In this document: piece by piece, positions 1,656 through 62,130 of the stretch
How positions within the stretch are numbered: position 1 is the first letter of the stretch
Layout: each line of letters opens with the position of its first letter
IMG/VR virus record: IMGVR_UViG_3300050821_000708
Span: 946 to 64,945 of that record
Strand: one strand, 5' to 3'
Length of the DNA: 64,000 bases
Source: a virus
Taxonomy: Duplodnaviria; Caudoviricetes
Translations under genes and position numbers: made by a program
The notes under the pieces: model-generated
Told to the model about the DNA's origin: nothing
The model's database searches: none
The model's input: the letters and a program-made list of their open reading frames with translations, nothing else

Positions 1656-1689
1656 GGGAGCCGGTCCCAGTTTCCAGAAACCGGCTCCC
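1656..1689 (-). terminator. hairpin after the major capsid gene, with the 12-bp motif in its loop
   Basis: GGGAGCCGG (1656-1664) / CCGGCTCCC (1681-1689) inverted repeat followed on the - strand by TTTG. Confidence 0.6.
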
Positions 1690-1695
1690 AATGGA

Positions 1696-3432
1696 TCAGA
1701 ACGAACCGTTCGCGTGCCAGTCACCGATGCCCGTGAGGTCCATCGCGCCGACCTGACCAGCGGTGTTGACCGGGATGTTGACCTTCTCGATGGAGAAGCC
1801 CGCCTTGGCGACAAGGAGGCCCTGTTCGAAGAAGACGCCGGTGTACTCGTTGATCGACAGCGAAGCCGCGTCGTACACGGTCGAGATGTTGACGACGTCC
1901 TCGACAGCCTTGACCACGGCACCAGCCGGGTAGATCAGGGCCTCGAAAACACCCGGCAGGATCGCGTCCACACCAGTCAGTTCCTGCCAGTCCGCCACGT
2001 ACTCGACGTTGAGACGACGGTCCACGAAGTGCTGGGCGATCTGCGCGTCGGACACCGAGTCCAGAGCAGCCCCGTTGCGGCGGCTCATGTCGGCCCGGAA
2101 GACCTCCTTGACCCACTCCGGCAACTTGACCTCAAGCACGGTGTTGACACCGATGCTCCACTTGCGGCGCTCCTTGAGGGCGATGATGCTGAGCGCCTCA
2201 AGGGTGTCGGTGAACGACGGGCCGTAGCCGTTGAAGACCACCGGGTCGGCCAGCGCCACGATGTCGCTGATGATCCGCGCGTTGACCTTGTGGGCGTAGA
2301 GCACACCAGCGAAGCGCAGAGCGTCGGTGATGAGTTCCGGGTACGCCTTCTGCGTCAGGAACGGGATCTTGTAGCAGTAGCCGATGGCGTCGAGGCGGTG
2401 GTCCACGAAGTCCGGGCAGACGATGGTCTCGCAGGTCTTGACCTGACCAGCCTCGGCCTGAGCCTCCGTCTGGACGAAGCCAAAGTCATCGAGGGCCGTA
2501 CCCTGCGAGGACCGGGCCGGACCCGTGGTGAGCAGTACGCCACCACGCGGGGCGCTGATCTCCGGGACGGTGATGAGACCGTCCACGACGTAGCCCGCGA
2601 GGAACGAGTAGACCGGCTCGGACGGGGCGCACCAACCAGCGGCGGTCAGAACCTCGGCGTCGTAGGTACGACGGGCGGTCTGGAGCGCGGCGTAGTCGTT
2701 GCCCGTGGACGCGACGAGCGCCTGCTCGAAATTCAGGTTGGCCTGAGCCACACCGAACTTGTGGAGCACCTCGTCGTTGCCCGTCTGCTTGCGAACAGCC
2801 ATGGCCGCGCGCTCGTTGAACGGGTTGAAGCCCTTGACCCGGTTGCGCATGGCCAGCGCGAGGGCGTCGTAGCCCTCCATCTGCGCTCCCGTGGCGAAGC
2901 CCGGTACGTCTGCCGCTGCGGTGATGGTCACCGGCTGAACAGCCTTGACCGCCGGACGGGCAACCTTGCGAGCGACCGCCTTCGCGGGGTTGATCTTCTG
3001 CGAACCACGCGCAGATGCGGTCACGGTGGCCTCCTCAGTGGCCTCGATTGCGGTCTCCTCGGCGGCTGCCTCGGTCGTCTCAGCCGCTGCCTCGACAGCG
3101 GCGTCTTCGGTCTCCTCCGACTCCTCGGAGGCTTCCTCGGTCTCGTCGGTCTCCTCGGAGGCCTCTTCGGTCTCCTCGGCGGCAGCATCAGCGCCACCAG
3201 CGGTGAACGACTCGCGAGCGGCGGCGAAGTCCTGACCGGCCTTGTCGGCGGTGGCCTTGCGGGCTGCCTGCTCGGTTTCGATGTCGCGGATGCTGGCGAC
3301 GAGGGTCTGTGCCTCGTTGGCCTGATCCACGGTCACCTCGCTCGGGTCGAGAGCGAAAAGGGTCTTGGCCTTCTCGTTCGCCTCGGTGAGTGCGGTGGCG
3401 AGTTCCTCGTTGGAGAGGCTCTGGATGTCCAT
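1696..3432 (-). CDS. major capsid (hexamer) protein with N-terminal scaffold-like region
   Basis: ATG at 3432 after RBS AAGGAG (578 aa). Coiled/acidic N-terminus, then AAGWCAPSEPVY motif typical of cluster-B-like actinophage major capsid proteins; strong codon bias. Confidence 0.85.
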   Translation of the reverse strand: MDIQSLSNEELATALTEANEKAKTLFALDPSEVTVDQANEAQTLVASIRDIETEQAARKATADKAGQDFAAARESFTAGGADAAAEETEEASEETDETEEASEESEETEDAAVEAAAETTEAAAEETAIEATEEATVTASARGSQKINPAKAVARKVARPAVKAVQPVTITAAADVPGFATGAQMEGYDALALAMRNRVKGFNPFNERAAMAVRKQTGNDEVLHKFGVAQANLNFEQALVASTGNDYAALQTARRTYDAEVLTAAGWCAPSEPVYSFLAGYVVDGLITVPEISAPRGGVLLTTGPARSSQGTALDDFGFVQTEAQAEAGQVKTCETIVCPDFVDHRLDAIGYCYKIPFLTQKAYPELITDALRFAGVLYAHKVNARIISDIVALADPVVFNGYGPSFTDTLEALSIIALKERRKWSIGVNTVLEVKLPEWVKEVFRADMSRRNGAALDSVSDAQIAQHFVDRRLNVEYVADWQELTGVDAILPGVFEALIYPAGAVVKAVEDVVNISTVYDAASLSINEYTGVFFEQGLLVAKAGFSIEKVNIPVNTAGQVGAMDLTGIGDWHANGSF

Positions 3433-3560
3433 TGGGTGCTCCTTCTGACCTGTAGTGGACGGATCGTACGTACGCCTGCACGTACGGAACGGCTCTGGGT
3501 CGAAGGCACCTTGGCTACTTCTTCGGAGCGAAGATATCACATGGTTTCTGGAAACCGCTA

Positions 3561-4511: not shown

Positions 4512-5428
4512 CCTCCGTCTACTCCGTCATCGCTGGTGTACGACGAAGACCCGCCGTCAACAACATCCACGCTGGTGTACGACGAAGACCCGCCGTCGAT
4601 CGAATCGTACAAGGCTTGAGCGCCACACTGGGGAACTGGGGCACTGTCCAGTAGGAAGGTGGTCCAGTGGGTGTGCGAGCCAATGGGCTTGCCCAGCCGT
4701 GGGTAGATGGGATCAACTGGCGTCGGCGTGCCACCGAACGGGGACGACCCGAAGGGATCGACACCGAAGCCCAACCCAACCGGACCAGTTGGTGTGACAA
4801 CCCGAGCCAAGCAGGCGTTGACAGCCGACTCATCCCAGCCACTCTCATCCCACCCGGACATGTCCCAGCCATCGCCAGACCAGCGCAGCGAGTACGGACC
4901 GTAGCCCCAGCGGCTCATACGGTAAGTCTTGGCCGCGCCCACTGTGAGATCCACACCCGTGTTGGTGTAGTTGAGGCTACTCATCCGACCGCCCCGCAGA
5001 CGAGGGAACAGCGTGTAGCCGTACTGGTAGCCATCGACCGGAACATCCAACTTCGACCATATCTCCATGGCGAAGTTCGACACGGGCATCTTGGAGAGGA
5101 AGTCGTTTCCAGAAACATCTCCCGTGGCGTTCAGGACCACCGGCTGCCCGGTGAGAATCGAGATCAGATCCGGGTCCACACCACACAGGTCCAGATCAAC
5201 GCCATAGCCCATGGTCCGGGGCTTGCCCCGAATGAGCACGCGGCTGAAATCGTTGTCGTTGCGAACCAACTCGTTCGACTGGTCCTCCACGATCTCGCTG
5301 ATCGCAGCCTTGATGATGCCCGAGGTGACTACGACTGACCTGTCACCTTCGACCGGAGCGCCTCGGTGGTCGAGCATGGTGAACCGAGCGACCTTGCCCC
5401 GAACCATCGAGTAGCACTTGGTATCCAT
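4502..5428 (-). CDS. major-tail-protein paralogue with C-terminal low-complexity extension
   Basis: Aligns by eye with the gene at 1-497: CY..VRG.V.R.T.LD, LCGVDPDLIS..TGQPVV.NA.GDV.G, E.WS.L, GYT.FP.L.GGR. Confidence 0.8.
   Translation of the reverse strand: MDTKCYSMVRGKVARFTMLDHRGAPVEGDRSVVVTSGIIKAAISEIVEDQSNELVRNDNDFSRVLIRGKPRTMGYGVDLDLCGVDPDLISILTGQPVVLNATGDVSGNDFLSKMPVSNFAMEIWSKLDVPVDGYQYGYTLFPRLRGGRMSSLNYTNTGVDLTVGAAKTYRMSRWGYGPYSLRWSGDGWDMSGWDESGWDESAVNACLARVVTPTGPVGLGFGVDPFGSSPFGGTPTPVDPIYPRLGKPIGSHTHWTTFLLDSAPVPQCGAQALYDSIDGGSSSYTSVDVVDGGSSSYTSDDGVDGGWS
4531..4597. repeat. 28-bp direct repeat (39-bp period) encoding DGGSSSYTS twice
   Basis: CGCTGGTGTACGACGAAGACCCGCCGTC at 4531 and 4570. 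Confidence 0.85.
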
Positions 5429-11269: not shown

Positions 11270-13295
11270 GGAGGACTCCCATCAAGTCGCTGTGTGCGTA
11301 CGGACGCTGGTTGTTGTAGAGATCCGCGCAGAACGCGCCCATCTTGGCTGTCAGATCACGCAATTCCGCCGCACTGGCACCATCGAACACGGTGGCGGCG
11401 AGTGAGAAGTCGAAGTCAGAGGCTGACCAACCCGTGTCAGACAACGTGGCCGTGATGTGAGCCATGTGCGCCGGGGTCGTTCGGTCCTTGTCCCGTCCCC
11501 GTCGCCCGTCGTTCAGCAGACGATTCCCGGCCTTCTCCAGCGCACGGAGAACCAATGCCTCGCACTTGGCCTCCCGAACGGCGTACGGAGCCGCTGAGTG
11601 ATCGTGCTGCTCAGTGGGCTTGCCGTCCGCCTTGGGGTGAGTCTCCAGTGACGGCGCTCCGTTGCCATTTGAGATGCCCTTGGGTGCCGGGTTTCCAGAA
11701 ACCGCCGGACCAGAGCCGTCCTCGTAGCCTCCTGCGGCTCCGGGCAGCGGCTCCAGTTCCAGATCCACGCCGAGTACCTTGAGTGCGGCCTGAATTTGCT
11801 CAGGTGCGACCGTTCCCGTGGCAACCTTGTTGGTCAGCCACGTCTGGTACTCCTGCTTAGTCATCATGTCGGTGTCTGGGTCGAAGCCATTCTCCTTGAG
11901 CGCTACTGCGGCCTTGAGAACACCTCGGTCGTACCACTCCAGCGCCTCCTTGGAGCGATCCTGCTTGAGGCGCAAAGTAGCCGTGTCATAGCCGACCACC
12001 TTCTCGGTGTTCTCCACGACCGAGCGCAGGTAACCAGAGGTGAGGCTGGATACGAAGATGTCCAAAGCGGGCTCGATGTGAGTCGAGATCGTCTGCTCCT
12101 CGTTGGCCCACATACCCCAGTGGTTCACCGAGCCCGTGGTGCCACGTCCCGAGCCGCCACCAATAAGGCCGGATGAGCCCAGCACCTGCTCCGGGGGCAG
12201 ATCCATGCCGAGCGCGAAGCGACGGATCGCATCGCTACGAAGGATCATCGCCTTGTCGTCAATCGTTGACCAGAACTGGATCAGTTTCTTCTGGTCGATG
12301 GCCGTCAGTGCCTCGGGGTTCGCCATGACGATGCTCGGGAAGGCGACCTCATCAGCGTCGAGGAAGTCCATCGAGGCGTTGGCGAGGCTCAACATGAACT
12401 GCTCGGCCTCGTTCATCAGAGCGATGGCCTCAGCGCCACCCTCCACGGCGTCAGCCGGGGGCGGTGGGAAGGTCAGGTTCTCCGGAAGGAACCAGACACC
12501 AGCCGACATGAGACGGGCGCGAACCTGAGTGAAGATGTGCTTACTCAGGTACTCGATCTCACGCAGGACCGGCAGCAGAGCCCGGAAGGACGACCATGCC
12601 TCGCGGCGGTCCTCGGGGTCTGGGTTCCACAGTCGGATCACCGGGTCGTCAGGTGCCAATTCGAGGAAGATGCCATTGTCATGGCGAACTCGCCACGTCT
12701 TCCCGACCTTCTGGATCTCGGTGACCGCGACGATCTCCCAGATGTAGGTGTTCGGGTTGAGCGCGTCGATCTCGTCCAACTGCTCCTCGTAGTCGGGATC
12801 GAACGGGTCCAGTGTGCCGACCTGCTCCAGCAGGTAGTCATCCCACTTGAGGTAACCCTCCGGCGGCGGTACGAAGTCAGGGTCGGTGTCCACGCGCTCC
12901 CGAGCCAGCAGGTAGCACTCCCCGGCCACGGTGTAGTGGAGCATGTAGTCGCGGATCAACTTGGATCGCTCGCGCACGGTTGGTGCCAGTGCCATCAGCG
13001 CCTCGACCTCGGGACCGCTGTCAATCCACGTCACTGATCCACCCGGCAGGGCTGTGGGCTCGGTGATGCCGATGGCAGCCCTTGCGGCCATGGCGGCGAA
13101 GATCGTCACCGCGTAACGGGCCTCACCACAGATGTTGACCTGCCGGTAAGCCTCGATCTGCCACGGCTTGGCGATGGAGTTTCGGTCGGTGTTCGGGTTC
13201 GACGGGCGCTGCGGGCGATAGATCGCCGTGCTGCCTGCCATCGCAATAGGCGGAGCCTTACGGACAGCGGCTGCCGGAGCCTTCGGACGGGCCAT
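11262..13295 (-). CDS. portal protein
   Basis: 677 aa between terminase and protease; motifs WQ.EAY....GE.RY, AI.R.A.GMDLPPE..LG...NHW..W...E characteristic of actinophage portals. Confidence 0.85.
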   Translation of the reverse strand: MARPKAPAAAVRKAPPIAMAGSTAIYRPQRPSNPNTDRNSIAKPWQIEAYRQVNICGEARYAVTIFAAMAARAAIGITEPTALPGGSVTWIDSGPEVEALMALAPTVRERSKLIRDYMLHYTVAGECYLLARERVDTDPDFVPPPEGYLKWDDYLLEQVGTLDPFDPDYEEQLDEIDALNPNTYIWEIVAVTEIQKVGKTWRVRHDNGIFLELAPDDPVIRLWNPDPEDRREAWSSFRALLPVLREIEYLSKHIFTQVRARLMSAGVWFLPENLTFPPPPADAVEGGAEAIALMNEAEQFMLSLANASMDFLDADEVAFPSIVMANPEALTAIDQKKLIQFWSTIDDKAMILRSDAIRRFALGMDLPPEQVLGSSGLIGGGSGRGTTGSVNHWGMWANEEQTISTHIEPALDIFVSSLTSGYLRSVVENTEKVVGYDTATLRLKQDRSKEALEWYDRGVLKAAVALKENGFDPDTDMMTKQEYQTWLTNKVATGTVAPEQIQAALKVLGVDLELEPLPGAAGGYEDGSGPAVSGNPAPKGISNGNGAPSLETHPKADGKPTEQHDHSAAPYAVREAKCEALVLRALEKAGNRLLNDGRRGRDKDRTTPAHMAHITATLSDTGWSASDFDFSLAATVFDGASAAELRDLTAKMGAFCADLYNNQRPYAHSDLMGVLRG

Positions 13296-16503: not shown

Positions 16504-16647
16504 TCACAGATCGTCTTCACGGTATAACTCCCTCAACCACTTACGGTACTCACGACGCCACTTCCACTTGCATTCTCCGGGCATCGATGCGGGTAGCCCA
16601 CACTTCGTGCAATAGACGCACCCCACGTCCACCCAGTTGTGCCTCAT
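16504..16647 (-). CDS. small Cys-rich hypothetical protein
   Basis: Read manually: MRHNWVDVGCVYCTKCGLP...; fills the gap between the terminase genes. Confidence 0.4.
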   Translation of the reverse strand: MRHNWVDVGCVYCTKCGLPASMPGECKWKWRREYRKWLRELYREDDL

Positions 16648-17550: not shown

Positions 17551-17833
17551 ACCGTACCACAGCATGGTTTGGGCGGGTTTCTGGAAACTCTACTTTTGGG
17601 TATAGGCAGATCAAAGCCCCCGGCTCCCAGAGGAACTACGCTCCCTAGTTCTGTGCAGACTCTGGACTGGAGATGCCGGGGGCTTATCTCGCGAGCCGGA
17701 GCAGTGGCTCGGTCCCAGAATTGTATCACAACATGTGGGCCCTCATATCGTCATACAGTATAACAACATAGTTTCCAGAAACTGTATTCTCTCAAACAGT
17801 GTAATACGGTATAACAACATAGTTTCCAGAAAC
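17551..17833 (-). promoter_or_regulatory. tandem leftward extended -10 promoters with three 12-bp sites
   Basis: - strand ATGTTGTTATACCGT, ATGTTGTTATACTGT, ATGTTGTGATACAAT, ATGCTGTGGTACGGT in an AT-rich divergent intergenic region. Confidence 0.6.
17753..17833. repeat. 30-bp direct repeat, 51-bp period
   Basis: ATAC(A/G)GTATAACAACATAGTTTCCAGAAAC at 17753 and 17804. Confidence 0.9.
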
Positions 17834-18601: not shown

Positions 18602-18745
18602 ATGAACGGTTGGGAAGTACTAGCGGCTCTGAGCGGACCGTTTCTTACGCTCGCTGCGCTCGGGGCAGGCTTGGCGTACACACATCACCATGACACACAC
18701 CCGAAAGGTCGACACTGTGACTTGCCGTGGGTTTCTGGAAACTAG
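18602..18745 (+). CDS. small membrane peptide
   Basis: RBS AAGGAG, MNGWEVLAALSGPFLTLAALGAGLAY..., ends in VSGN encoded by a 12-bp site. Confidence 0.55.
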   Translation: MNGWEVLAALSGPFLTLAALGAGLAYTHHHDTHPKGRHCDLPWVSGN

Positions 18746-51286: not shown

Positions 51287-54200
51287 TCACAGTCTCCCGA
51301 CTATCTCGTTGACGACCTCGTGAGCGACAGCCACCGGGTCAGCGGTCGAAGTCTCGACGTTGATCTCGACGTGGGGTCCCGAGTTTCCAGAAACCGTAGC
51401 AGGCTGCTGGCGGGATGCCGCGTACGCCGCGACCTCCTTGCTCGGGGCGATCCGACCGAACAGGTTGCTGGCAGCGTTGTCGATCTTGGCCTTCTGGTTG
51501 TTGAGGCCGATCACGCCACCATCACCGACGTGATCCATCATGTCGATCATCACCGTGGACGGGGAGTGGATACCCAGCGACTTCTTCACCGCAGCCGCGA
51601 TGGCGTTACCCAGAGCGGTCGCAGCGGTGTCCAACTGCTTGGACATGCTGGTGAGGCCGTCTACCAGACCCTGAGCCGCATCCACACCCGCCTGATACAG
51701 CCGGTTGGAGGTCTCCACGCCCAACTGACCAGCGATGGTGTTGATCTGACCGACCAGTCCGTTGGTCTGCGAGACCGCGCCGACGCCACCATTGACAAGG
51801 GCTTGGGCGTACGCGCCACCCTGATCCACACCAGCGTCCACGATCTGCTTGTAGGCGTCGTTGGACAGACCCTCGGCCAGCAGGATCTTGAGGTTCTTCT
51901 GGAACGTCTGGATCTGCGTCAACTTGGCTTGCAGGTTCGTGGTGATGTCGGTGGCCGTCAGCGCCTGTGCGATGCCGTTGACCGTCTGGGCCTGCGCGGT
52001 GATCAGTGAGGCGAACGACTTCACCGCATCCGATACCGAGGTGCTGTACTGGTCACGCAACGAGATCGCGGCAGCCAACTTCTGGTTCGCTACCGTGAGC
52101 GCAGCAGCGATGGACTGACGGGCGTTCGCGTAGTCAGCCAGCGAGCCGTTGTACTTCTTGAGCACATCCAGCACGTGAGCGTACTGCGACAGGATCTGGT
52201 CTGGCGACTGGTTGCTGGTGTCGCCCAGCGGCTTGAGCAGGGTGTTCACCCACGCCATGGTGACCTTCTGCTTGTTCAACGCCGCGATCTCAAGATTGAG
52301 AGTCTTCTGGGCCTTGAGAGCAGCGGCGAGATCACGCTGGGCGCCCTTGACCTTCGCCAGCGCCGCAGCAGCGGCCTTGGCCGACGACGCGCTGGCGAGA
52401 CTCTGAGCCGCGCTGGACAACGCCGACTGCGCCGTGTTCACCAACTGAGCCGCCGACGTGGCGATGTTCTGCGTGAGCGTGTTGATCTGCGTGGCAACGT
52501 CGCCACCCGAGGCAGCCTTGGAGATCGATGCAAGAGCCTGCGCGATCTGCTTGTTCTGCGACAGGATCGCGTTCTTGATCTGGGCAGCCACGGACGGACC
52601 CTGAGCGAGGAGTGCGTTCGCGTAGCCCGCGTAGGGGTTCTGGTACTGGCCTGCACCCGGGGCCTTCTGAGTGCCATACGCAGACGGCGGAGGTGCAAGG
52701 TAGCCGACACCACCCCCACCACCTCCGGCGTGGATCTCCTTGAGGATCTTGCCTGCGTCAATCTTCGGGGCGTTCGGGAGCGCCTTGGACAGATCAGCCA
52801 GTCCGGGGATGACACCACTGAGGGTGCCCACGAGACTGTTGAGTTCCTGCTGGGCCGCGTACGCGAAGCCACCGGTCTTGGCCAACTCGTTGTTGATGTT
52901 AACCAGAGCAGTCGGAGTCAGGTTGTTGTCAGCCGTGTTAAGCAGCGCTTGGAAATCACTGTTGGACAAGTTCAACTGATCACGGACGATGAGCAGGTAG
53001 TTGTGCAGGTTGTTGAGCATCGCTCCGGCTGTGTCGGTCTGGAAGCCCATCTGCTGCATCGCCGCCGCGAGGTCTACCGCACCAGCCCTTGCTCGCGCCT
53101 GAGCGAAGGTCAACTGGTCCCATCCGTCAGTGTTGATGCCCAACTGACCAGCCTGCTGGATCAACGTCTGTCGCAACTGAGGCAACTCATTGTTCAACTC
53201 GGTAGCAGCCGCTGACACACTCACAATCTGGTCGAACGACAACTTGCCGCCAGCCTTGAGTGTGTTCATGGCAGCGGCGACACCGACAGTCTTGTCTGCG
53301 AGCGCGGAGAATGCCTGCGCCATCTGACCAGCCTTGGCTGAATTAAGGGACGCGTTGAAGTCGTCCAGTGCCTTCTTCGCGTCGGCGGCGCGCTTCTCAA
53401 ACCCGAACAGAGTCGTTCCCATGAACGTCACAGCGGCGGCAGCGTAAGCCACCGGGCTCGCCGGACCTCCAAGAGCGAGAAACGCGCCCCCAGCGGCAGC
53501 GGCAGCGCCACCAATGATCGCGAGATCGCTTGCGCCCTTGTGGGTAGCCAAAGCCAACCCACCAATCGCCACGCCGACTCCAATAGCCTTGGTGGCGAAT
53601 GACCCGAAACTCGCTGCCGCACCCATCAACTGGATGGAGTTCATCTCTGCCATCGCCACGGCAGCCGCCTTCACAGCGGGGCCGAACTTGAGGAAGGCAA
53701 TCGTCGCGAGACCGATACCGCCGACCATGGCCTGCACCGGCCCGGGGAGAACCTGCAAGACCGCAGCGAACTGCTGGAACAGCGCGACCAATGGCCCCAG
53801 AGCACTGACGATGACCTTGATGGCAGGGGTGAGGATCTGCAAGATCGTAGACAGGGTTTCCAGAATCCCGACGATGATCTGCATGGACCCATCGCTCACC
53901 AGCGCGTGGAAGAACCCACCAAGAGCCCCGAGCGTCTCACCCAACGACTGGGCGAACGTCTTGGCCCGGGCGAACCAAGCCTCCATCTCACCACCAGCGA
54001 TGCGACGACGGAAGTTGTCGATAGCCGAAGACAGCCCGTCGAAGATCGAGTTACCGGCCTTCTGACCAGACGGGCTGAACAGCACATCGCTGAGCAGCCC
54101 ACCAAACTGAGTCACAAACCCCCACAGCGACTTGAGGGATACCAGAGCACGATCAGTGAAGTCCACGATGGCGTTGTGACCGGACGCCGAAGTGGCCCAC

Positions 54201-55726
54201 TTGGCGAACTTGGTAGCGATGTCATCGAGGTAGAAGCCGAAGTCACGTACGAAGGGCATCAGACTCGCGAAGATCCCGGCGAAGGCGTTGGCGAACTTCC
54301 CCAGAGCGTTGGAGAACGTGACCGTGATAATCGGCAGGAGACTCGACAGTGAAGTATCCAACTGCTGGAAGCCCTTGCCACTGAATGCCTTGGTGAAGGC
54401 GTCTCCAGCCTCAGCCAGCGCCGGACCCATCCGACGTACCAAAGGCTCAGTGAGGACGAGAGCGTCGGTGAGGTTCTTGCTCCACGTCTTGGTGGCAGGC
54501 AGCAGCGACTGATCGAGAACCTGACCGATCCCCTTGAACTCGTCGCGTAGGGGCATGAAGTTCGCCTTGAGTACCTTCTTCTGCGCGTTGTCCAACGACA
54601 CGAAGGCGGTAACCACCAGTCCTGCGCTGACAGCGAAGGCTGCCATGGACGCGCCAGCGACGATCAGAGCCCCTGTCAGGCCAGAGGTGATCGTGGCAAC
54701 CATCGCCGTGATAGCCCCACCCAGACCGGAGACAGTGGTGATCAGCAGGGACAGCACGGTCGTAAGGGCACCTACCGCGACAGCGCCACCAGCGGCTCCG
54801 TGGATGATCTTGGTGAAGGCATTGTCGCCACCACCGCCAGCAGCGCTGAGGGCACCCGTCAACTTCTCCACAGCGGTGACCGCGCCACCGAGACCTTGGA
54901 ACAGTGCGTTGAAGATACCGGCACCGAACAGGGTGGCACCGATGCCGCTAATCGAGCCACCGATGCCGCCAGCCTGTGCGCCGTTGTTCTTCTTGGTCAA
55001 CTGCTCGGCTGCCCGGAGACGGTCAGCGTCAAACTTGGCGTTCATCCGGGCGGCAAGATCGAGAGTTCCGAGCCATTTGCGATCAGCGAGATCCCGGTCA
55101 GCGTCGAACTTGGCATTCATCCGCTGGGCACTGTCTAGCATCGACAGCCACTGCCGACCATAGGCGTCGGCCTTCTCCAGCGAAGCGAGGTGATCAGCGT
55201 CGTACTTCGCATTCGCTGTCGCTGCTCGTTCCAGCAGGGCGTCGTCCGGGTTTCGCGAAGGGAACTGACGACTGCTACTGACGCCACTACCGATGGAGTT
55301 TCCAGAAACCTTGGCCCGGTCGAGCATGTTCTCGACATCGGTCATCGCGTTGGCAACGATCAGTTCCAGCCGGTTCCCGAGCGTGTCACTGATACCAGCC
55401 AGCAGGCGGTCTACGAAACTGTTGGAGTTGTTGGAGTCGAGCGCAGACTTGAACTCGCGGCTGAATCCGATGCCGGACTCGTTACCGGCTTCCTCCATGC
55501 GGGTCTTCCAGCCCTTGCCGACGTTATCGCTGATGCGATCCATCCGGTCATTGCTGGTGGAGTCGAAGCCCTCGCTGTAGCGGTTACCGTGATCCTCACC
55601 GGCCTTCTCAACGCCGGGACCAGCCTTTTCGACCTGCGCAACGATGTCTTCATTGATCCCGTCGCCGTCAACTGTGATCTTGACAACGCCATCACCGACG
55701 TTGGGGCCGGTCCCACGTGTGGTCAC
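51287..55726 (-). CDS. tape measure protein
   Basis: 1479 aa, Ala/Gly-rich helical and hydrophobic segments, C-terminal LGIHSPS motif; follows the chaperone genes. Confidence 0.95.
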   Translation of the reverse strand: MTTRGTGPNVGDGVVKITVDGDGINEDIVAQVEKAGPGVEKAGEDHGNRYSEGFDSTSNDRMDRISDNVGKGWKTRMEEAGNESGIGFSREFKSALDSNNSNSFVDRLLAGISDTLGNRLELIVANAMTDVENMLDRAKVSGNSIGSGVSSSRQFPSRNPDDALLERAATANAKYDADHLASLEKADAYGRQWLSMLDSAQRMNAKFDADRDLADRKWLGTLDLAARMNAKFDADRLRAAEQLTKKNNGAQAGGIGGSISGIGATLFGAGIFNALFQGLGGAVTAVEKLTGALSAAGGGGDNAFTKIIHGAAGGAVAVGALTTVLSLLITTVSGLGGAITAMVATITSGLTGALIVAGASMAAFAVSAGLVVTAFVSLDNAQKKVLKANFMPLRDEFKGIGQVLDQSLLPATKTWSKNLTDALVLTEPLVRRMGPALAEAGDAFTKAFSGKGFQQLDTSLSSLLPIITVTFSNALGKFANAFAGIFASLMPFVRDFGFYLDDIATKFAKWATSASGHNAIVDFTDRALVSLKSLWGFVTQFGGLLSDVLFSPSGQKAGNSIFDGLSSAIDNFRRRIAGGEMEAWFARAKTFAQSLGETLGALGGFFHALVSDGSMQIIVGILETLSTILQILTPAIKVIVSALGPLVALFQQFAAVLQVLPGPVQAMVGGIGLATIAFLKFGPAVKAAAVAMAEMNSIQLMGAAASFGSFATKAIGVGVAIGGLALATHKGASDLAIIGGAAAAAGGAFLALGGPASPVAYAAAAVTFMGTTLFGFEKRAADAKKALDDFNASLNSAKAGQMAQAFSALADKTVGVAAAMNTLKAGGKLSFDQIVSVSAAATELNNELPQLRQTLIQQAGQLGINTDGWDQLTFAQARARAGAVDLAAAMQQMGFQTDTAGAMLNNLHNYLLIVRDQLNLSNSDFQALLNTADNNLTPTALVNINNELAKTGGFAYAAQQELNSLVGTLSGVIPGLADLSKALPNAPKIDAGKILKEIHAGGGGGGVGYLAPPPSAYGTQKAPGAGQYQNPYAGYANALLAQGPSVAAQIKNAILSQNKQIAQALASISKAASGGDVATQINTLTQNIATSAAQLVNTAQSALSSAAQSLASASSAKAAAAALAKVKGAQRDLAAALKAQKTLNLEIAALNKQKVTMAWVNTLLKPLGDTSNQSPDQILSQYAHVLDVLKKYNGSLADYANARQSIAAALTVANQKLAAAISLRDQYSTSVSDAVKSFASLITAQAQTVNGIAQALTATDITTNLQAKLTQIQTFQKNLKILLAEGLSNDAYKQIVDAGVDQGGAYAQALVNGGVGAVSQTNGLVGQINTIAGQLGVETSNRLYQAGVDAAQGLVDGLTSMSKQLDTAATALGNAIAAAVKKSLGIHSPSTVMIDMMDHVGDGGVIGLNNQKAKIDNAASNLFGRIAPSKEVAAYAASRQQPATVSGNSGPHVEINVETSTADPVAVAHEVVNEIVGRL

Positions 55727-57406: not shown

Positions 57407-57419
57407 GGTTTCTGGAAAC

Positions 57420-59588: not shown

Positions 59589-59978
59589 TCAGCCTACCGC
59601 AGGATCAGCCACAGGCTGGTTTCCAGAAACCGGCGGTTCGTCCGGTTCGTCCGGTGCGTCAGCCTGCGAGCCACTCACCGAGGAGATATCCAGTCCGCCG
59701 TCAGTCGCCGGATTGTAAACCTCGCTCGACACCACTTGACCCGTGACGATCGGTGTAGAAGGAAGGGAGTTCAGGTTCAGATTGGCCAGCGTCAACACAT
59801 GGGCGATGCCGGATAGACCAGCAAGGACCATGATCAGGAAAGCCGCATCAATGTTGTCGATGTGACCCTTGGCCAGCAGGTAGGAGACCGTCCCGGCACC
59901 GAAGGTAACCGAGAGCAGGCCGATGACGTACGCGAGAACGCGTAGCCAGAGCGGGAGGCGAACAGTGTTGTCGTCCAT
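59589..59978 (-). CDS. holin (putative)
   Basis: Two TM segments, directly after the endolysin. Confidence 0.65.
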   Translation of the reverse strand: MDDNTVRLPLWLRVLAYVIGLLSVTFGAGTVSYLLAKGHIDNIDAAFLIMVLAGLSGIAHVLTLANLNLNSLPSTPIVTGQVVSSEVYNPATDGGLDISSVSGSQADAPDEPDEPPVSGNQPVADPAVG

Positions 59979-61189
59979 CAGGCGACACCCTTCCAATCAG
60001 CGGTGGTGCTCCGAGCGGCCTTTCCGCGCGGAGTCATGAGCGGGTACAGGCTACCGAGGTTGGCAGCGTAGTGCTTGATCAGACCGACCTGCTGGTCGGC
60101 AGCGGCCTTCTGCTGAGCCGTCATGGTCGGCGGCTTGACGATGACCTGCTTGGACTTGGAGAAGGCGATCAGGGCTGCCCTGCTCGGGAAGTTCAAGACA
60201 TCACCGTCGATGTTCGCACCGTGAGTGTCCTGCACGTAGCCGAACTGCTGGACCTTCCACGGAGCAACCACGTTCGGCTGTCCCGGAGGGTTGTTCGGGT
60301 CAGCGGGCCAGAAGGCATCCCCGTAGTTGGAACTCTGATCGATCTGCTTCCAGAAGTACAGGTTGCAGTACAGCGCCACGATGTGGAGCGGCTGCTTGGC
60401 CTGCAATCGGCTGAGCGATCGATCCTTCTCGTCGCTGCTCGGCCATGCGCCCTTGTAGGCCTCCCAGTCGTAGGAGAGCCAGTCAGTGTCTCCCAGAGAC
60501 GGGATCTTGGACAGGAAGAAGTCCACCTGACTCTCGGCGCTGACGCCGACCTGCGCGGCGCTGTGACCGAACATGTAGTAGTTGACGACTGCCTTGATGG
60601 AACGTGCCCACGCGGCCTGCGCTGCGGCCTTGGGATTGACGTACCAGACGACCTTGCCTGAGGAGTCCTTGTAGACCTCAGTGAGTTTGATACCCACCCA
60701 GTCGGGGACGAAGTTCAGGGACGGCGCTACGTCCTGATACGCCGAGATGTCGATTCCGCGAAGCATGGATGCCTCCTGTGGGGCTGGAACGGTGTAGAGG
60801 ACCGGCTTCACGTGATGCCAGTAGTCGAACGGTGCGACTCTCTCCTCGTAGTGGAGATGCGGTCCGGTGACGTTGCCTTCTGCGCCAGACGTACCAATGC
60901 GCTGGCCAGCAGCGACGTGCTGACCGATGGAGACGCTGAATGCCTCCATGTGCGCGTAGAGATGACGTAGTTTCTGGCCCTTGTAGACCGACTCAATCAT
61001 CACTTGGTGGTAGCCATACGCCGAACCTCCGACGTTGCCAGTACCGACAACCACCCCGTCATAGGTGGAGAAGATCGGAGTACCGACGGGACAGCCAAAG
61101 TCAACTCCAGTGTGGTATCCCGCCATGTAGTTCCCCGGCACACCGTATGCCAGTGTGATCGGGGTTCCACGAGGGACCGGAAGCACCAT
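59978..61189 (-). CDS. endolysin: M23 peptidase + GH25 muramidase
   Basis: HTGVD, YAH, GNVTGPHLHYE (M23); GIDISAYQ, IK.TE, YDWE, QQF...DGD (GH25). Confidence 0.9.
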   Translation of the reverse strand: MVLPVPRGTPITLAYGVPGNYMAGYHTGVDFGCPVGTPIFSTYDGVVVGTGNVGGSAYGYHQVMIESVYKGQKLRHLYAHMEAFSVSIGQHVAAGQRIGTSGAEGNVTGPHLHYEERVAPFDYWHHVKPVLYTVPAPQEASMLRGIDISAYQDVAPSLNFVPDWVGIKLTEVYKDSSGKVVWYVNPKAAAQAAWARSIKAVVNYYMFGHSAAQVGVSAESQVDFFLSKIPSLGDTDWLSYDWEAYKGAWPSSDEKDRSLSRLQAKQPLHIVALYCNLYFWKQIDQSSNYGDAFWPADPNNPPGQPNVVAPWKVQQFGYVQDTHGANIDGDVLNFPSRAALIAFSKSKQVIVKPPTMTAQQKAAADQQVGLIKHYAANLGSLYPLMTPRGKAARSTTADWKGVA

Positions 61190-62088
61190 CAGAACAGGCT
61201 TTCAGGCTTGACCTCGGACATGTAGTTCTCCACATCGGTCTTGACCTGCTCCACGACCGACTCGATGGCCTTGATCCCACTCTCCACGATCTGGAGAACT
61301 CCCTCGGCGGTCGGACCCACAGGCGCAGGCGTCGGAGTCGGCTCAGGGGTCGGAGCAGGCACCGGCTCCGGCTGAGGAGTAGGCGAGGGAGCCGGTGCCG
61401 GTACGGGAACGGTGAACACGGTGCAATCGCCGTTCTGGCCGAGCAGAGCACCGAGGTCCGACCAGATCATCCAACCACGACCCTGAATGCCCCACGAGTC
61501 GCTCCACGAGTTCGTGAACCAGACACGCTTGTTCTCCACGTCGATCTCGTCCAGCACGATCTCGTGACCACCGACGACGCTGCCGACCGGGGAGACCTGA
61601 CCCTCAGGGGTCGTGTTCTCCATCAAGTCGTACCAGTTGATGCCGATGATGACCGGCTGCTTGGCCAAAGCCGCGAGCGTGGCGTTCAGCGAGAAGGCGT
61701 GCTGGTAGGCCGGGATCAGTCCCCGCTTCTTGAGCACCTTCGCGATGGCCAGACCGGAGCCACCGTTGTCGTTCGGCGGGTAGGGACCAAATCCGAGCGC
61801 GACTTCCTCGTCGGAGTAACACCCGAGCGCGTACTGCTCGTCCACGTCCGGGTTCTGGGTCAGCACGGACTCACCCACCGCTGGCCAGAAGGCTCCGGTG
61901 CCCAGTGCGCCGACGGCAGCGTTCGCGGTACACGAGCCGACCTCACCCTGATTGAAGACCGGAACGTAGCGCTCATGGCGAACGGAGACCAGCGCGGCGA
62001 TCTCCTCGTCCGTGGGCTCCTCGATGGCGAAGTTGCGACTGAGTGGGTCGTGATCTACGAACCGGGCCAACTTGTAGGGAAATGTCAT
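61189..62088 (-). CDS. papain-like (C1) cysteine peptidase with Pro/Thr linker
   Basis: NQGEVGSCTANA, GGHEI, NSWSDSWG; ATG 62088 after AAGGAG. Confidence 0.85.
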   Translation of the reverse strand: MTFPYKLARFVDHDPLSRNFAIEEPTDEEIAALVSVRHERYVPVFNQGEVGSCTANAAVGALGTGAFWPAVGESVLTQNPDVDEQYALGCYSDEEVALGFGPYPPNDNGGSGLAIAKVLKKRGLIPAYQHAFSLNATLAALAKQPVIIGINWYDLMENTTPEGQVSPVGSVVGGHEIVLDEIDVENKRVWFTNSWSDSWGIQGRGWMIWSDLGALLGQNGDCTVFTVPVPAPAPSPTPQPEPVPAPTPEPTPTPAPVGPTAEGVLQIVESGIKAIESVVEQVKTDVENYMSEVKPESLF

Positions 62089-62130
62089 CGTGCTCTCCTT
62101 GCTGTGGTTTCTGGAAACTCGTGTCACATT

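What the first reader, a model, noticed from the sequence alone, without database searches (positions are those of the whole stretch)
1670..62118. Genome-wide lattice of a 12-bp palindromic site GTTTC-NN-GAAAC (36 copies): candidate undescribed DNA-marking system
Seen: 33 exact copies of GTTTCCAGAAAC/GTTTCTGGAAAC plus 3 of GTTTCCGGAAAC, about one per 1.8 kb, over both arms. About 23 lie inside genes, including portal, protease, PolA, helicase, tape measure and holin. They occur in different frames (peptides VSGN, FLET, FPET, FWK, FQK), so protein sequence does not explain them. A rough chance estimate for this AT-rich 12-mer at an assumed ~63% GC is well under 0.1 copy per window. Known: the half-sites match the outer bases of actinobacterial parS (GTTTCACGTGAAAC) with the centre shortened from 4 to 2 bp. 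Cluster A mycobacteriophage stoperators are also dispersed, but they are asymmetric and belong to temperate phages, and no integrase is seen here. Inference: a dimeric protein binds the genome at regular intervals for condensation, localisation, protection, packaging or global transcription control.
Basis: partly seen in the sequence, partly recalled or inferred. Interest (0 to 1): 0.9.

Follow-up and report, generated by a model that had tools for sequence, protein, structure and literature searches.

The report
Evenly spaced 12-bp palindrome across phage genome
An uncultured soil phage, probably of actinobacteria, and its many relatives keep dozens of exact copies of one 12-base near-palindrome at even intervals along the genome, even inside genes, which points to an unidentified DNA-binding protein that reads the whole genome.

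Summary
The window holds 36 exact GTTTC-NN-GAAAC sites (37 in the 64.9-kb genome), against 0.04 expected. The motif is all-or-none: 34 exact, 4 one-mismatch, 4 two-mismatch.

The same 12-mer occurs 48-53 times in three complete relatives that share only about 50-60% protein identity. It was found in every clade contig examined and was absent from two outgroup contigs. In 401 sampled Actinomycetota genomes it occurred at most 4 times per genome.

Selection acts on the DNA:
- Synonymous-codon shuffles give 0.4-0.7 coding sites, against 24-32 observed.
- Sites use rare codons.
- 9 of 35 site positions in core genes are kept in all four genomes.
- Lost sites are sometimes replaced nearby.
- Spacing is far more even than random (CV 0.45-0.62 against about 0.98).

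Twelve of 13 strict extended -10 promoter-like motifs lie within 57 nt of a site.

No integrase, ParA/ParB, HU, KorA or DNA methyltransferase was found, and the binding protein is unidentified.

Best reading (about 45%): these are recognition sites of a phage-encoded dimeric protein that acts as operators plus intragenic roadblock or nucleation sites. The closest precedent is the unexplained 17-bp repeat of Cluster O mycobacteriophages. This is a new variant of a known kind.

The parts
1670..1681 (.). site, CA centre on + strand, noncoding; 14 nt after the stop of the 614-aa gene; sits at the apex of a longer inverted repeat
   Evidence: sites stand at what looks like the same junction in G001, G002 and G003
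3544..3555 (.). site, TG on +, noncoding; between stop and start of two minus-strand genes; 4 nt upstream of an extended -10-like TGATATCTT
3531..3539 (-). extended -10-like element TGNTANNNT next to site 3544
   Evidence: the same arrangement is listed for G001 57442, G002 20141 and G003 58638
5105..5116 (.). site in 308-aa gene, frame 0, VSGN; specific to this genome
10805..10816 (.). site in 760-aa NUDIX-containing gene, VSGN; kept in G002 and G003
11691..11702. site in portal gene, VSGN, in an indel-rich linker; shared with G001 and G002 in the MAFFT alignment, with G002 only by tblastn
14438..14449 (.). site in glycosyltransferase gene, GFLET; kept in 4 of 4 genomes
16680..16691 (.). site at the 3' end of the 226-aa gene upstream of TerL, VSGN; kept in 4 of 4
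17577..17588 (.). site in the divergent intergenic region between the two arms
17771..17782 (.). site in the divergent region; 5 nt upstream (minus strand) of TGTTATACT
17757..17765 (-). extended -10 promoter-like TGTTATACT, pointing to the terminase/structural arm
17720..17728 (-). second extended -10-like TGATACAAT
17822..17833 (.). site lying 51 bp from site 17771; the roughly 30 bases printed beside the two sites are nearly identical
18731..18742 (.). site, noncoding, early arm
19803..19814 (.). site overlapping the TAG stop of a 97-aa ORF, upstream of the early leader CCAACAGAAAG
20704..20715 (.). site, CG centre, in 201-aa ORF (LFPET)
21441..21452 (.). site overlapping the TAG stop of a 92-aa ORF
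22861..22872 (.). site directly after the TAA stop of a 115-aa ORF
23150..23161 (.). site in 314-aa gene (EFLET); G001 and G002 have a site 5 alignment columns away
25828..25839 (.). site in 64-aa ORF (KFLET)
28196..28207 (.). site, noncoding, 14 nt upstream of the start of the 86-aa gene
29438..29449 (.). site near the 3' end of the 119-aa nuclease-like gene (EFLET); specific to this genome
30893..30904 (.). site in DUF2800/PD-(D/E)XK gene (AFLET); kept in 4 of 4
32689..32700 (.). site in 242-aa ORF (VSGN)
33964..33975 (.). site, noncoding by my gene calls
35244..35255 (.). site, noncoding, 22 nt upstream of the 130-aa gene and just before CCAACAGATAG
37983..37994 (.). site in DNA polymerase A gene, frame 1 (RFWKL); kept in 4 of 4
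38994..39005 (.). site in SNF2 helicase gene (KFLET); made by point changes. G001 has the one-mismatch form; G002 and G003 have FLES/FLDS with TTC and CTC codons
40222..40233 (.). site, CG centre, in SNF2 gene (VSGN); kept in 4 of 4. G002 has a CA centre with a Gly to Arg change
42023..42034 (.). site at codons 3-7 of the AAA_25 helicase gene (EFPET); kept in 4 of 4
43788..43799 (.). site in GT2 glycosyltransferase gene (PFLET)
44981..44992 (.). site, CG centre, in 140-aa core gene (VFPET); kept in 4 of 4, with a CA centre in the other three
46398..46409 (.). site at the 3' end of the 230-aa phrog_7999 gene (SFQKP); kept in 4 of 4
49819..49830 (.). site in 872-aa gene (VSGN); specific to this genome
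51383..51394 (.). site at the C-terminal end of the tape measure gene (VSGN); kept in 4 of 4 within an indel-rich stretch
55298..55309 (.). site in tape measure gene (VSGN); this genome only. The other three share a site 38 alignment columns away
53856..53867 (.). the only one-mismatch variant besides the CG forms (GTTTCCAGAATC), in the tape measure gene
   Evidence: genome coordinate 54801
57408..57419 (.). site read on the minus strand as TAG-site-C-ATG; probably intercistronic, though called coding by the longest-ORF rule
59619..59630 (.). site near the 3' end of a 135-aa gene (VSGN)
62107..62118 (.). site probably about 20 nt upstream of the true start (AAGGAG then ATG downstream); called coding by the longest-ORF rule
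40576..41103 (+). candidate binder (inference only): 175-aa protein with an N-terminal long helix plus helix-turn-helix; conserved in 4 of 4 genomes
16644..17324 (-). candidate binder (inference only): 226-aa clade-specific protein just upstream of TerL; its conserved stretch looks like a helix-turn-helix to my eye, and no tool called one
33221..33535 (+). candidate binder (inference only): 104-aa Cys/His-rich protein, possibly a zinc ribbon; matched in G001-G003 by tblastn

Best explanation
The 12-mer (R)GTTTC-YR-GAAAC(Y) is a cis-acting DNA element under strong purifying selection.

It is most likely the high-affinity recognition site of one sequence-specific, two-fold symmetric (dimeric) double-strand DNA-binding protein encoded by this phage clade.

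Inferred mechanism. The protein occupies sites that overlap or directly follow the host-RNA-polymerase (extended -10) promoters, where it acts as an operator. It also occupies sites kept every 1.2-1.7 kb through both gene arms. There it acts as a transcription roadblock, or as a nucleation point for a nucleoprotein coat. The whole genome can then be switched or organised by one factor.

Shown: the existence of the element, DNA-level selection, clade-wide conservation, even spacing and promoter association.

Inferred: that a protein binds, that it is phage-encoded, that it is a dimer, and that the outcome is transcriptional.
For: Over-representation:
- 36 sites in the window against 0.04 expected.
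- 24-32 coding sites per genome against 0.38-0.74 in 1000 synonymous-codon shuffles each.

All-or-none spectrum: 34 exact, 4 one-mismatch and 4 two-mismatch copies, against 0.03, 0.21 and 3.4 in Markov-3 simulations. The same pattern holds in G001-G003.

Strict geometry: 0 copies with 0, 1, 3 or 4 bp between the arms. The centre is a pyrimidine-purine step in every copy examined; TA occurs once (in L068) and never in the four complete genomes.

Clade-wide presence:
- 53, 50 and 48 copies in three complete relatives.
- 29, 14 and 37 copies in three partial relatives, and 0 in two outgroup records with a 36-41% identical major tail protein.
- 13 of 13 portal-related loci carry it.

DNA-level conservation:
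- 9 of 35 site columns in 29 core gene families are kept in 4 of 4 genomes, at 45-65% protein identity.
- One site is kept with a Gly to Arg change.
- One site was built through TTC to TTT, CTC to CTG and Ser to Thr changes.
- Every VSGN tetrapeptide in the four proteomes is motif-encoded.

Even spacing: CV 0.62, 0.49, 0.45 and 0.50 against 0.98 (P = 0.001, then 0 of 20,000 simulations three times). It stays significant under a null that keeps the coding/noncoding split and the gene junctions. Near-position replacements occur in the tape measure, portal and 314-aa genes.

Promoter link: 12 of 13 TGNTAYAHT motifs, all 13 intergenic, lie within 57 nt of a site. TGNTANNNT starts 0-5 nt after a site in 8 cases against 0.2 expected.

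Polarity: in junctions between co-oriented genes the sense strand reads the CA form in 25 junction families and the TG form in 6 (P = 0.0009).

Phage-intrinsic rather than host-wide: at most 4 copies in any of 401 Actinomycetota genomes, close to the reversed-pattern control. The motif is constant across relatives that do and do not avoid CCWGG. One sub-clade prefers the CG centre.
Against: - No binding protein was identified.
- ParB_N, KorA, HU, tyrosine and serine recombinase and ParA families are absent from the 4 genomes.
- The HTH candidate folds only moderately (pLDDT 64) and has no PDB fold match below E = 0.1. The 226-aa candidate models poorly (pLDDT 51).
- Sites are about as dense in the late/structural arm as in the early arm. 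That fits badly with a simple early/late switch in a phage that shows no sign of lysogeny: no integrase, and no prophage relative of the portal in the genome collection.
- Only a minority of sites lie near a recognisable promoter. About 25 TGNTANNNT motifs lie within 80 nt of the 188 sites.
- Promoters and sites both crowd into the scarce noncoding DNA, so part of the association is shared confinement. My rough estimate is about 25% co-occurrence by chance, against 12 of 13 observed.
- Homologous sites in the four genomes are not independent, so pooled P-values are inflated.
- Gene calls are my own crude ones, and start codons are uncertain.
Confidence: 0.45

Rival explanations
1. A self-recognition or architectural lattice unrelated to transcription. 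The evenly spaced sites let a phage protein tell phage DNA from host DNA. Possible uses are choosing DNA for packaging (the 226-aa protein upstream of TerL acting as a small terminase), condensing or looping the genome, or halting a nuclease so that phage DNA is spared while host DNA is degraded.
For: - Even spacing with both short and long gaps under-represented.
- Replacement of lost sites nearby.
- Equal density in both arms.
- The motif is almost absent from the bacterial genomes sampled: 309 of 401 have none and the maximum is 4. It would therefore be a highly specific self-label.
- A site kept in 4 of 4 genomes lies at the 3' end of the 226-aa gene next to TerL.
- That protein is clade-specific and was not found in the outgroup record, which still has TerL, portal and tail genes.
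Against: - Nothing ties the 226-aa protein to packaging except its position. It has no Pfam family, no PDB relative and no tblastn match in the phage collection.
- This model does not predict the promoter association or the transcription-related polarity.
- I know of no phage with many dispersed pac sites or with a 12-bp nuclease-stop signal (recalled, not searched).
Confidence: 0.25
2. Binding sites for a host protein, such as a transcription factor or nucleoid protein. The phage would either recruit it or titrate it away from the host chromosome as a decoy.
For: - The motif is identical across phages with only about 55% protein identity. A conserved host factor would explain that easily.
- No phage-encoded binder was recognised.
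Against: - No enrichment in 401 Actinomycetota genomes: 92 have at least one copy, the maximum is 4, and this matches the reversed-pattern control. Bacterial copies are mostly of the CG form.
- Relatives differ in CCWGG avoidance, which suggests different hosts, yet they keep the motif.
- Centre preference differs between sub-clades.
- The true host is unknown and may not have been sampled.
Confidence: 0.08
3. Target of a sequence-specific enzyme acting on DNA. This could be a nicking or cutting endonuclease, a resolvase or recombinase using the asymmetric central dinucleotide, or a priming or replication enzyme, rather than a passive binding site.
For: - The all-or-none spectrum and strict geometry resemble enzyme recognition sites.
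- The central pyrimidine-purine step with asymmetric TG/CA is the layout of serine-recombinase crossover sites (recalled).
- The clade encodes PD-(D/E)XK nucleases, Prim-Pol and helicases.
Against: - No resolvase or integrase family was found.
- Cutting or recombining at 37-53 sites would fragment or scramble the genome.
- There is no absolute strand bias: 16 TG against 18 CA on the + strand.
- The only run found is held as contigs, which cannot show ends or nicks.
Confidence: 0.07
4. An RNA-level signal, such as an mRNA processing site or a translational operator in the intercistronic leader, read on the transcript rather than on DNA.
For: - Intergenic sites typically sit as stop-(0-25 nt)-site-(3-10 nt)-Shine-Dalgarno-ATG.
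- They have a sense-strand polarity of 25 junction families to 6.
Against: - Coding sites show the opposite, weak bias: 61 TG against 43 CA.
- The hairpin is weak. Mean MFE of site +/- 3 nt is -1.59 kcal/mol, against -1.78 for random 18-mers.
- No Rfam family reaches threshold in the window.
- Sites in the divergent region lie upstream of the predicted -10 elements.
Confidence: 0.05
5. A chemical DNA mark: the site is the target of a phage methyltransferase or other base-modifying enzyme.
For: - The recognition pattern is specific and palindromic.
- Glycosyltransferases are present.
Against: - N6_N4_Mtase, DNA_methylase and MethyltransfD12 families are found in 0 of 4 genomes each.
- Glycosyltransferases in actinophages are known for virion glycosylation (recalled; the Cluster O paper discusses the same point).
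- A mark alone does not explain why sites must be evenly spaced.
Confidence: 0.03
6. Chance, composition, protein-motif repetition, or footprints or insertions of a small mobile element.
For: 12 bp is a whole number of codons. Several VSGN sites lie in indel-rich linkers.
Against: - Shuffle controls rule out chance and composition.
- Three frames are used.
- At least one site was made by point substitutions at aligned codons, without an indel.
- Flanks are not conserved.
Confidence: 0.01

Closest known systems
17-bp dyad repeat of Cluster O mycobacteriophages (Corndog and relatives), TGTTCGGNNNCCGAACA; PMC4351075 (passages read)
   Same: - More than 30 copies per roughly 70-kb actinophage genome.
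- Invariant inverted arms with very few degenerate copies.
- A variable, mostly asymmetric centre.
- Copies both between and inside genes.
- No integrase or parAB.
- Function unknown; the authors predict a dimeric DNA-binding protein.
   Different: - Different sequence and geometry (7+3+7 against 5+2+5). Neither motif occurs in the other group.
- No homologous proteins were detected by tblastn at E = 1e-3.
- Corndog sites are not evenly spaced (CV 1.07, crowded at one end). Only about a third are within coding regions, against about two thirds here.
- The paper reports no meaningful orientation.
Cluster A mycobacteriophage stoperators (L5 gp71 type); what is stated here comes from the Cluster O paper's discussion and from recall
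   Same: - Dozens of 12-14-bp sites dispersed over the whole genome.
- Many at gene boundaries.
- One class overlaps a promoter.
- Orientation is correlated with transcription.
- One protein silences or gates the whole genome.
   Different: - Stoperators are asymmetric and bound by a monomeric immunity repressor of temperate phages.
- Here the arms are a perfect palindrome.
- No integrase, ParA or ParB was found.
- Most sites are intragenic.
- Spacing is even.
Global operators of IncP plasmid RK2 (KorA 12-bp and KorB 13-bp palindromes); recalled, not read here
   Same: Short perfect palindromes repeated over a roughly 60-kb replicon. They are bound by small dimeric regulators that coordinate all operons, and some act at a distance from promoters.
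   Different: - Only 7-12 sites per replicon, all near promoters.
- The KORA family was not found in 4 of 4 genomes, nor ParB_N.
- The recalled KorA operator occurs 0 times.
ParB-parS and Noc-NBS
   Same: The outer half-site bases GTTTC/GAAAC resemble parS. Noc sites are dispersed over a chromosome.
   Different: - The half-sites are 2 bp apart, not 4. There are 0 copies with N4.
- No ParB_N protein.
- The only link is a weak PHROG hit of the 226-aa protein to a 'ParB-like' family (E = 1.7e-4).
Uptake signal sequences and Chi: over-represented self-identifying oligomers of bacterial chromosomes (recalled)
   Same: Exact short words at about kb intervals, in genes and between them, which mark DNA as 'self' for a DNA-processing machine. 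Even spacing has been reported for uptake sequences (recalled).
   Different: - Those are host-chromosome features, not palindromic, and strongly strand-oriented.
- No enrichment of this motif was seen in 401 sampled Actinomycetota genomes.
Start-associated sequences (SAS) of Cluster K mycobacteriophages; mentioned in PMC4351075, the rest recalled
   Same: A repeated 13-bp element placed just upstream of start codons of many genes.
   Different: SAS are asymmetric and tied to translation starts. Here only about a third of sites are intercistronic and two thirds are inside genes.

Membership tests
Cluster O-type dispersed dyad repeat | 30 or more copies per genome of a dyad-symmetric word with invariant arms and few degenerate copies | tested here: met
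   37, 53, 50 and 48 copies. Mismatch spectrum 34/4/4 in G000 and similar in the others.
Cluster O-type dispersed dyad repeat | The Cluster O word itself (7+3+7) and homology to Cluster O phages | tested here: not met
   0 copies of the 17-mer in G000-G003. 0 copies of the 12-mer in Corndog, and no tblastn hit from G000 proteins.
Cluster A stoperator system | Asymmetric site | tested here: not met
   The arms are perfectly palindromic; only the central 2 bp are asymmetric.
Cluster A stoperator system | Orientation follows the direction of transcription | tested here: inconclusive
   Intergenic junction families: 25 CA against 6 TG. Coding sites: 61 TG against 43 CA.
Cluster A stoperator system | Temperate phage with integrase or parABS and an immunity repressor | tested here: not met
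   Phage_integrase, Resolvase, AAA_31 and ParB_N: 0 of 4 genomes each. No portal relative in the genome collection. A repressor could not be recognised.
Cluster A stoperator system | A site overlaps the early promoter (operator) | tested here: met
   12 of 13 TGNTAYAHT motifs lie within 57 nt of a site. In 8 cases the extended -10 starts 0-5 nt after the site. The promoters are predictions only.
ParB-parS / Noc-NBS | 14-16-bp site with a 4-bp centre | tested here: not met
   0 copies of GTTTC-N4-GAAAC in 4 genomes.
ParB-parS / Noc-NBS | ParB_N (CTPase) domain protein encoded | tested here: not met
   PF02195: 0 of 4 genomes. The control rang in 11 of 14 known genomes.
KorA-type global regulator | KORA family protein | tested here: not met
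   PF16509: 0 of 4 at E <= 0.1.
Restriction-modification or orphan methyltransferase site | A cognate DNA methyltransferase encoded | tested here: not met
   PF01555, PF00145 and PF02086: 0 of 4 each. Other modification enzymes were not tested.
Host chromosomal word (uptake sequence, Chi, host regulon) | Enrichment in host genomes | tested here: inconclusive
   Maximum 4 copies in 401 evenly drawn Actinomycetota genomes. The 14-mer gave only single hits in scattered taxa. The host itself is unknown.
Protein-binding operator in general | A protein binds the site specifically | not testable with these tools
   No protein-DNA prediction or experiment is available here. The candidates are only inferred.

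The most novel reading that the evidence does not exclude
The lattice is a phage 'self-identification code'. It would be an evenly spaced, nearly host-free 12-mer that one phage machine reads to treat phage DNA differently from host DNA. That machine could be the packaging initiator, a nuclease-stop or roadblock factor, or a coat-forming protein. It would be a viral counterpart of Chi or uptake sequences. Selection would act on coverage (one site per roughly 1.2 kb) rather than on individual positions.
Probability: 0.2. Interest if true: 0.85.

Novelty: new variant of a known kind. Interest (0 to 1): 0.62.

Why it matters
Dispersed, exactly conserved palindromes in actinophage genomes have been known since the Cluster O work, but their function is unexplained.

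This clade offers a cleaner case:
- It is large. At least 324 distinct homologues of one clade-specific protein were found.
- The word is identical across deep divergence.
- Most copies are inside genes, paid for with rare codons and amino-acid changes.
- The spacing is even and appears to be maintained by turnover.

That pattern means selection acts on coverage of the genome by one factor. This is a concrete, testable property.

If the binder is found, it would reveal how a lytic phage controls or labels its whole chromosome with one protein. It could also supply a compact orthogonal protein/operator pair.

Tried and rejected
Close cultured relatives. megablast of 12 kb against the phage collection found none. 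The nearest portal relatives are Arthrobacter phages at about 31% identity. The first 50 kb of phage Tank hold 0 copies and no dominant word.

tRNA and Rfam. No tRNA genes and no Rfam match at gathering threshold.

Annotation. Pfam and PHROGs named few early proteins.

Candidate binders.
- The 175-aa HTH model has pLDDT 64, and Foldseek against the PDB gave nothing below E = 0.29.
- The 226-aa model has pLDDT 51 and was not searched by fold. Its profile found no PDB sequence relative and no tblastn match in the phage collection.
- The 175-aa protein had no tblastn match either.
- ESM Atlas gave only sub-threshold leads.
- The 230-aa protein has only 'hypothetical' homologues.

Gene-content contrast. 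Comparison with the motif-free outgroup G406 could not single out a binder, because none of the early/replication-arm proteins has a tblastn match (E <= 1e-3) in that 80%-complete record.

Core against accessory genes. Site density is 0.45 per kb in shared genes and 0.31 per kb in unshared genes. This is not clearly different.

Sequencing runs. One soil metatranscriptome run holds 28 contigs that are at least 99% identical. It is kept as contigs only and at low depth, so it says nothing about RNA ends, nicks or expression at the sites. One contig end at 23153 beside site 23150 is not evidence.

Literature. The exact words and degenerate forms were found only as primers or oligonucleotides in unrelated papers (search listings only). 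A wider word search gave only the Cluster O paper as relevant. Supplementary files were not consulted. The site tables of the Cluster O paper may hold details I did not see.

Rejected readings.
- An ECF-type or MotA-type promoter element: no conserved partner element appears in the flanks.
- The site acting as a -35 hexamer: the spacer would be 10-16 nt, by my reading.
- A Shine-Dalgarno role: the site lies upstream of separate SD sequences.

Full report
WHAT IS THERE

The window is bases 946-64945 of a 64,945-bp IMG/VR virus record. Its ends repeat 82 bp, so the assembly is circular with a unique length of 64,863 bp.

GTTTCNNGAAAC occurs 36 times in the window, at exactly the coordinates given. 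The mean in 100 dinucleotide shuffles was 0.04 and the largest count was 1. The whole record holds 37 copies.

Thirty-four copies are the single word GTTTCTGGAAAC or its reverse complement. Three have a CG centre and none has TA.

Oriented by the centre, the flanks lean to purine on the 5' side (29 of 37) and pyrimidine on the 3' side (34 of 37). Nothing further out is conserved.

The motif is all-or-none. There are 34 exact, 4 one-mismatch (3 of them the CG form) and 4 two-mismatch copies. Markov-3 simulations give 0.03, 0.21 and 3.4. No copy has 0, 1, 3 or 4 bp between the arms. More than half of all GTTTC/GAAAC pentamers in the genome sit in full sites.

It is by far the commonest 10- or 12-mer of the genome.

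THE GENOME

My own codon-statistics gene caller gives two arms.

One arm is minus-strand. It carries a 226-aa protein, TerL, a glycosyltransferase, the portal, tail-fibre-like proteins, the major tail protein and the tape measure.

The other arm is plus-strand. It carries an AAA_5 ATPase, a DUF2800/PD-(D/E)XK nuclease, an Enc34-type SSB, a family-A DNA polymerase, an SNF2 helicase, Prim-Pol, an AAA_25 helicase and glycosyltransferases.

There are no tRNA genes and no Rfam match.

A DUF3039 protein hints at an actinobacterial host; that this family is mainly actinobacterial is my recollection. So does the fact that the nearest cultured portals belong to Arthrobacter phages, at about 31% identity.

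Nothing close exists in the phage collection.

Phage_integrase, Resolvase, AAA_31 (ParA), ParB_N, HU, KORA and three DNA-methyltransferase families are each found in 0 of 4 clade genomes. The controls rang in known genomes.

No portal relative is in the 185,579-species genome collection. The phage therefore looks lytic, as far as absence can show.

A CLADE-WIDE FEATURE

A scan of IMG/VR for a 14-bp form of the motif picked out contigs with several hits.

Three complete genomes of 61-64 kb hold 53, 50 and 48 copies, with the same all-or-none spectrum. They align with the window over only about 20-24 kb at about 71% nucleotide identity. Core proteins are 40-77% identical.

- All 13 loci found with a portal profile carry the motif at 0.34-1.02 per kb.
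- So do the 8 TerL-related loci I examined of 12 returned. The other 4 belong to contigs already counted.
- Partial genomes G408, G410 and G409 hold 29, 37 and 14 copies.
- Two records whose major tail protein is only 36-41% identical hold none. One is 49.8 kb and 80% complete; the other is 15.7 kb.

One sub-clade (G409 and two near-identical contigs) prefers the fully palindromic CG centre, in 9 of 14 sites.

A profile of the clade-specific 226-aa protein finds 324 distinct proteins at E <= 0.001 among the 8000 candidates scored. Many are on contigs of 57-65 kb. The clade is therefore large.

SELECTION ACTS ON DNA, NOT ON PROTEIN

Shuffling synonymous codons within each gene, 1000 times per genome, leaves 0.74, 0.38, 0.41 and 0.47 coding sites on average, with a maximum of 5. 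Observed values are 24, 32, 32 and 29.

The sites use rare codons (TTT, AAA, GTT, TCT, GGA, GAA). In G001, 9 of the 21 TTT codons are in sites.

Every VSGN tetrapeptide in the four proteomes (10, 13, 13 and 10) is motif-encoded.

At VSGN sites the synonymous position reads TCT far more often than the preferred TCC. The TG centre is therefore itself favoured in these genomes.

In 29 core gene families there are 35 site positions. Nine are kept in 4 of 4 genomes, 5 in three, 5 in two, and 16 are unique. Shared positions always use the same frame.

Examples:
- The polymerase site (RFWKL) and the DUF2800 site (AFLET) are kept while their neighbouring residues vary.
- The SNF2 VSGN site is kept in G002 as VSRN, with a CA centre. 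The site survives at the cost of a Gly to Arg change.
- The SNF2 KFLET site of the window corresponds to FLES (one mismatch) in G001 and to FLES/FLDS with TTC and CTC codons in G002 and G003. That site was built by point changes, not by insertion.

SPACING

The coefficient of variation of the gaps is 0.62, 0.49, 0.45 and 0.50. Random placement gives 0.98 +/- 0.13. P = 0.001 for the window's genome, and 0 of 20,000 simulations reached the observed value for each of the other three.

Maximum gaps are short (2.8-3.7 kb against a median of 5.0-5.7 kb expected). Minimum gaps are long (93-309 bp against about 15-20 bp) in G001-G003.

The result holds under a null that keeps the numbers of coding and noncoding sites and puts the noncoding ones on real gene junctions (P = 0.0015, then 0 three times).

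All four genomes were treated as circular. For the three 'linear' records this adds one artificial gap each.

Several unique sites lie a few to 38 codons from the position used by the other genomes, in the tape measure, portal and 314-aa genes. This looks like replacement that preserves coverage.

The largest gap in the window (5.7 kb, from 5105 to 10805) spans two tail-fibre-like genes with no or little homology in the relatives. Overall, though, site density in shared and unshared genes does not clearly differ.

For comparison, the 34 Corndog repeats have CV 1.07.

WHERE THE SITES SIT

Noncoding DNA is 10.5-12.4% of each genome but holds 13 of 37, 21 of 53, 18 of 50 and 19 of 48 sites (P from 9e-5 to 4e-7).

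Of the coding sites, 41 of 117 lie within 60 nt of a gene end.

Intercistronic sites typically read stop-(0-25 nt)-site-(3-10 nt)-Shine-Dalgarno-ATG. Some overlap a TAG stop.

In junctions between co-oriented genes the sense strand reads the CA form in 42 sites, TG in 17 and CG in 3. Collapsed by downstream-gene family this is 25 against 6 (P = 0.0009).

Inside genes the choice follows what the protein tolerates (VSGN over VSRN, FQK over FWK). The overall coding ratio is 61 TG to 43 CA.

The polarity is real. I cannot say whether it reflects the function of the site or constraints of the translation-initiation region.

PROMOTER LINK

The strict extended -10 pattern TGNTAYAHT occurs 13 times in the four genomes, always outside genes. 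Twelve of the 13 lie within 57 nt of a site.

With the looser TGNTANNNT pattern, the element starts 0-5 nt after the end of a site in 8 cases (0.2 expected) and 6-15 nt after it in 3 cases (0.4 expected). It lies 41-80 nt upstream of the end of a site in 8 cases (1.6 expected).

So there are two arrangements. In one, the site covers roughly -18 to -35 of a promoter. In the other, the site lies in the first tens of bases of the transcript.

In the window the first arrangement is seen at 3544 and at 17771. Site 17822 lies 51 bp from 17771 and has nearly identical flanks.

Caveats:
- The promoters are only pattern matches.
- Homologous junctions are counted more than once.
- Promoters and sites share the scarce noncoding DNA. 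I estimate about 25% chance co-occurrence, still far below 12 of 13.

NOT A HOST WORD, AS FAR AS SAMPLED

In 401 Actinomycetota genomes drawn evenly from the phylum, 92 have at least one copy and none has more than 4. This is close to the reversed-pattern control, and the bacterial copies are mostly of the CG form. That count includes four unpublished genomes, used for counts only.

G000-G003 almost lack CCWGG (0-5 copies against about 230 expected), whereas three relatives do not. This suggests different hosts but the same motif.

Together with the sub-clade difference in centre preference, this favours a phage-encoded reader. The true host is unknown.

WHAT IT MOST LIKELY IS

Several features are what a two-fold symmetric DNA-binding protein would impose:
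- a perfect 5+2+5 palindrome;
- a pyrimidine-purine centre;
- exactness;
- strict spacing between the arms;
- independence from reading frame;
- no stable RNA hairpin (mean MFE -1.59 against -1.78 kcal/mol for random 18-mers).

Promoter-overlapping copies suggest operator action. The evenly spaced intragenic copies suggest roadblocks or nucleation points, so that one factor reaches the whole genome. I give this combined reading about 45%.

A non-transcriptional self-recognition or architectural role (packaging choice, condensation, nuclease stop) explains the even spacing and equal density in both arms better. It explains the promoter link worse. I give it about 25%.

Host-factor sites, enzyme targets, RNA signals and chemical marking share the rest.

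The binder is not identified. The candidates are named only from their fold or sequence character and their conservation:
- a 175-aa protein with a long helix plus HTH;
- the 226-aa clade-specific protein upstream of TerL, whose conserved stretch looks HTH-like to my eye, and which has a weak 'ParB-like' PHROG hit;
- a 104-aa Cys/His-rich protein.

The motif-free outgroup record shows no match to any early/replication-arm protein, so gene-content contrast does not help.

COMPARISON WITH WHAT IS KNOWN

The closest published case is the 17-bp dyad repeat of Cluster O mycobacteriophages. It has 34 copies in Corndog, invariant arms and three one-mismatch extras. About a third of copies are in genes, there is no integrase or parAB, and the function is unknown (PMC4351075, passages read).

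The present lattice is unrelated to it by word and by genes. It differs in three ways: it is evenly spaced, mostly intragenic, and polar in intergenic sites.

It works like Cluster A stoperators in some respects: dispersal, gene-boundary preference, a promoter-overlapping class, and orientation. It fails their defining features of an asymmetric site and a temperate phage.

It is not parS. The exact words were not found in a phage context in the paper library.

VERDICT

This is a real, strongly selected, clade-wide cis-element lattice. It is a new variant of a known but unexplained kind. The mechanism is inferred, not shown.

Noticed in passing
whole window (and G001-G003): CCWGG is almost absent. 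The window has 0 CCAGG and 1 CCTGG, against about 110 expected for each. G001-G003 have 0-5. Three related contigs (L270-L272) have 25-74 copies in 13-17 kb. This looks like avoidance of a host CCWGG-specific restriction system that differs between hosts of the clade. CTAG is also depleted (41 against 228 expected).
   Followed up: partly
window 17720-17833: The divergent region between the two arms holds two sites 51 bp apart with nearly identical flanks. It also holds two extended -10-like elements (TGTTATACT, TGATACAAT) that point into the terminase/structural arm. A third site lies at 17577.
   Followed up: partly
window 17945, 19838, 24127, 26164, 35258 (+ strand): A repeated early-gene leader CCAACAGA(A/T)AG lies just before start codons. 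It is often preceded by a short palindrome: ATGCGAC..GTCGCAT-like in this genome, GTGCTAG..CTAGCAC in G001-G003. It may be a second regulatory element or a leader hairpin.
   Followed up: no
window 1650-1700: Site 1670 forms the apex of a longer inverted repeat (..GGGAGCCGG site ..CCGGCTCCC) after the 614-aa gene. The same arrangement is seen in G001-G003. It may be a terminator-like hairpin that includes the site.
   Followed up: no
window 5433-8962: Two large tail-fibre-like genes (705 aa; 471 aa with collagen repeats) have no or little homology in the three relatives. They lie in the longest site-free gap (5.7 kb). This may be recently acquired DNA that has not yet gained sites.
   Followed up: partly
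window 53856-53867: The only one-mismatch copy other than the CG forms (GTTTCCAGAATC) lies inside the tape measure gene. It may be a decaying or nascent site.
   Followed up: no
window 35667-35903: A 78-aa protein matches DUF3039 (E = 6e-21). I recall this family as mainly actinobacterial, which would be a host hint.
   Followed up: no
window 13627-14496, 43141-43869, 44141-44848: Three glycosyltransferase-like genes are present. One lies between TerL and the portal and is conserved in the clade. This is reminiscent of the virion-glycosylation genes discussed for Cluster O phages.
   Followed up: no
window 12000-31999: A public soil metatranscriptome run holds 28 contigs that are at least 99% identical to this stretch. 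The phage or its DNA was therefore present in an RNA library. Depth is too low, and contigs are unsuitable, for any statement on expression.
   Followed up: partly
genome ends (outside the window, genome 1-82 and 64864-64945): An 82-bp direct terminal repeat of the record is most simply an assembly overlap of a circular or circularly permuted genome.
   Followed up: no
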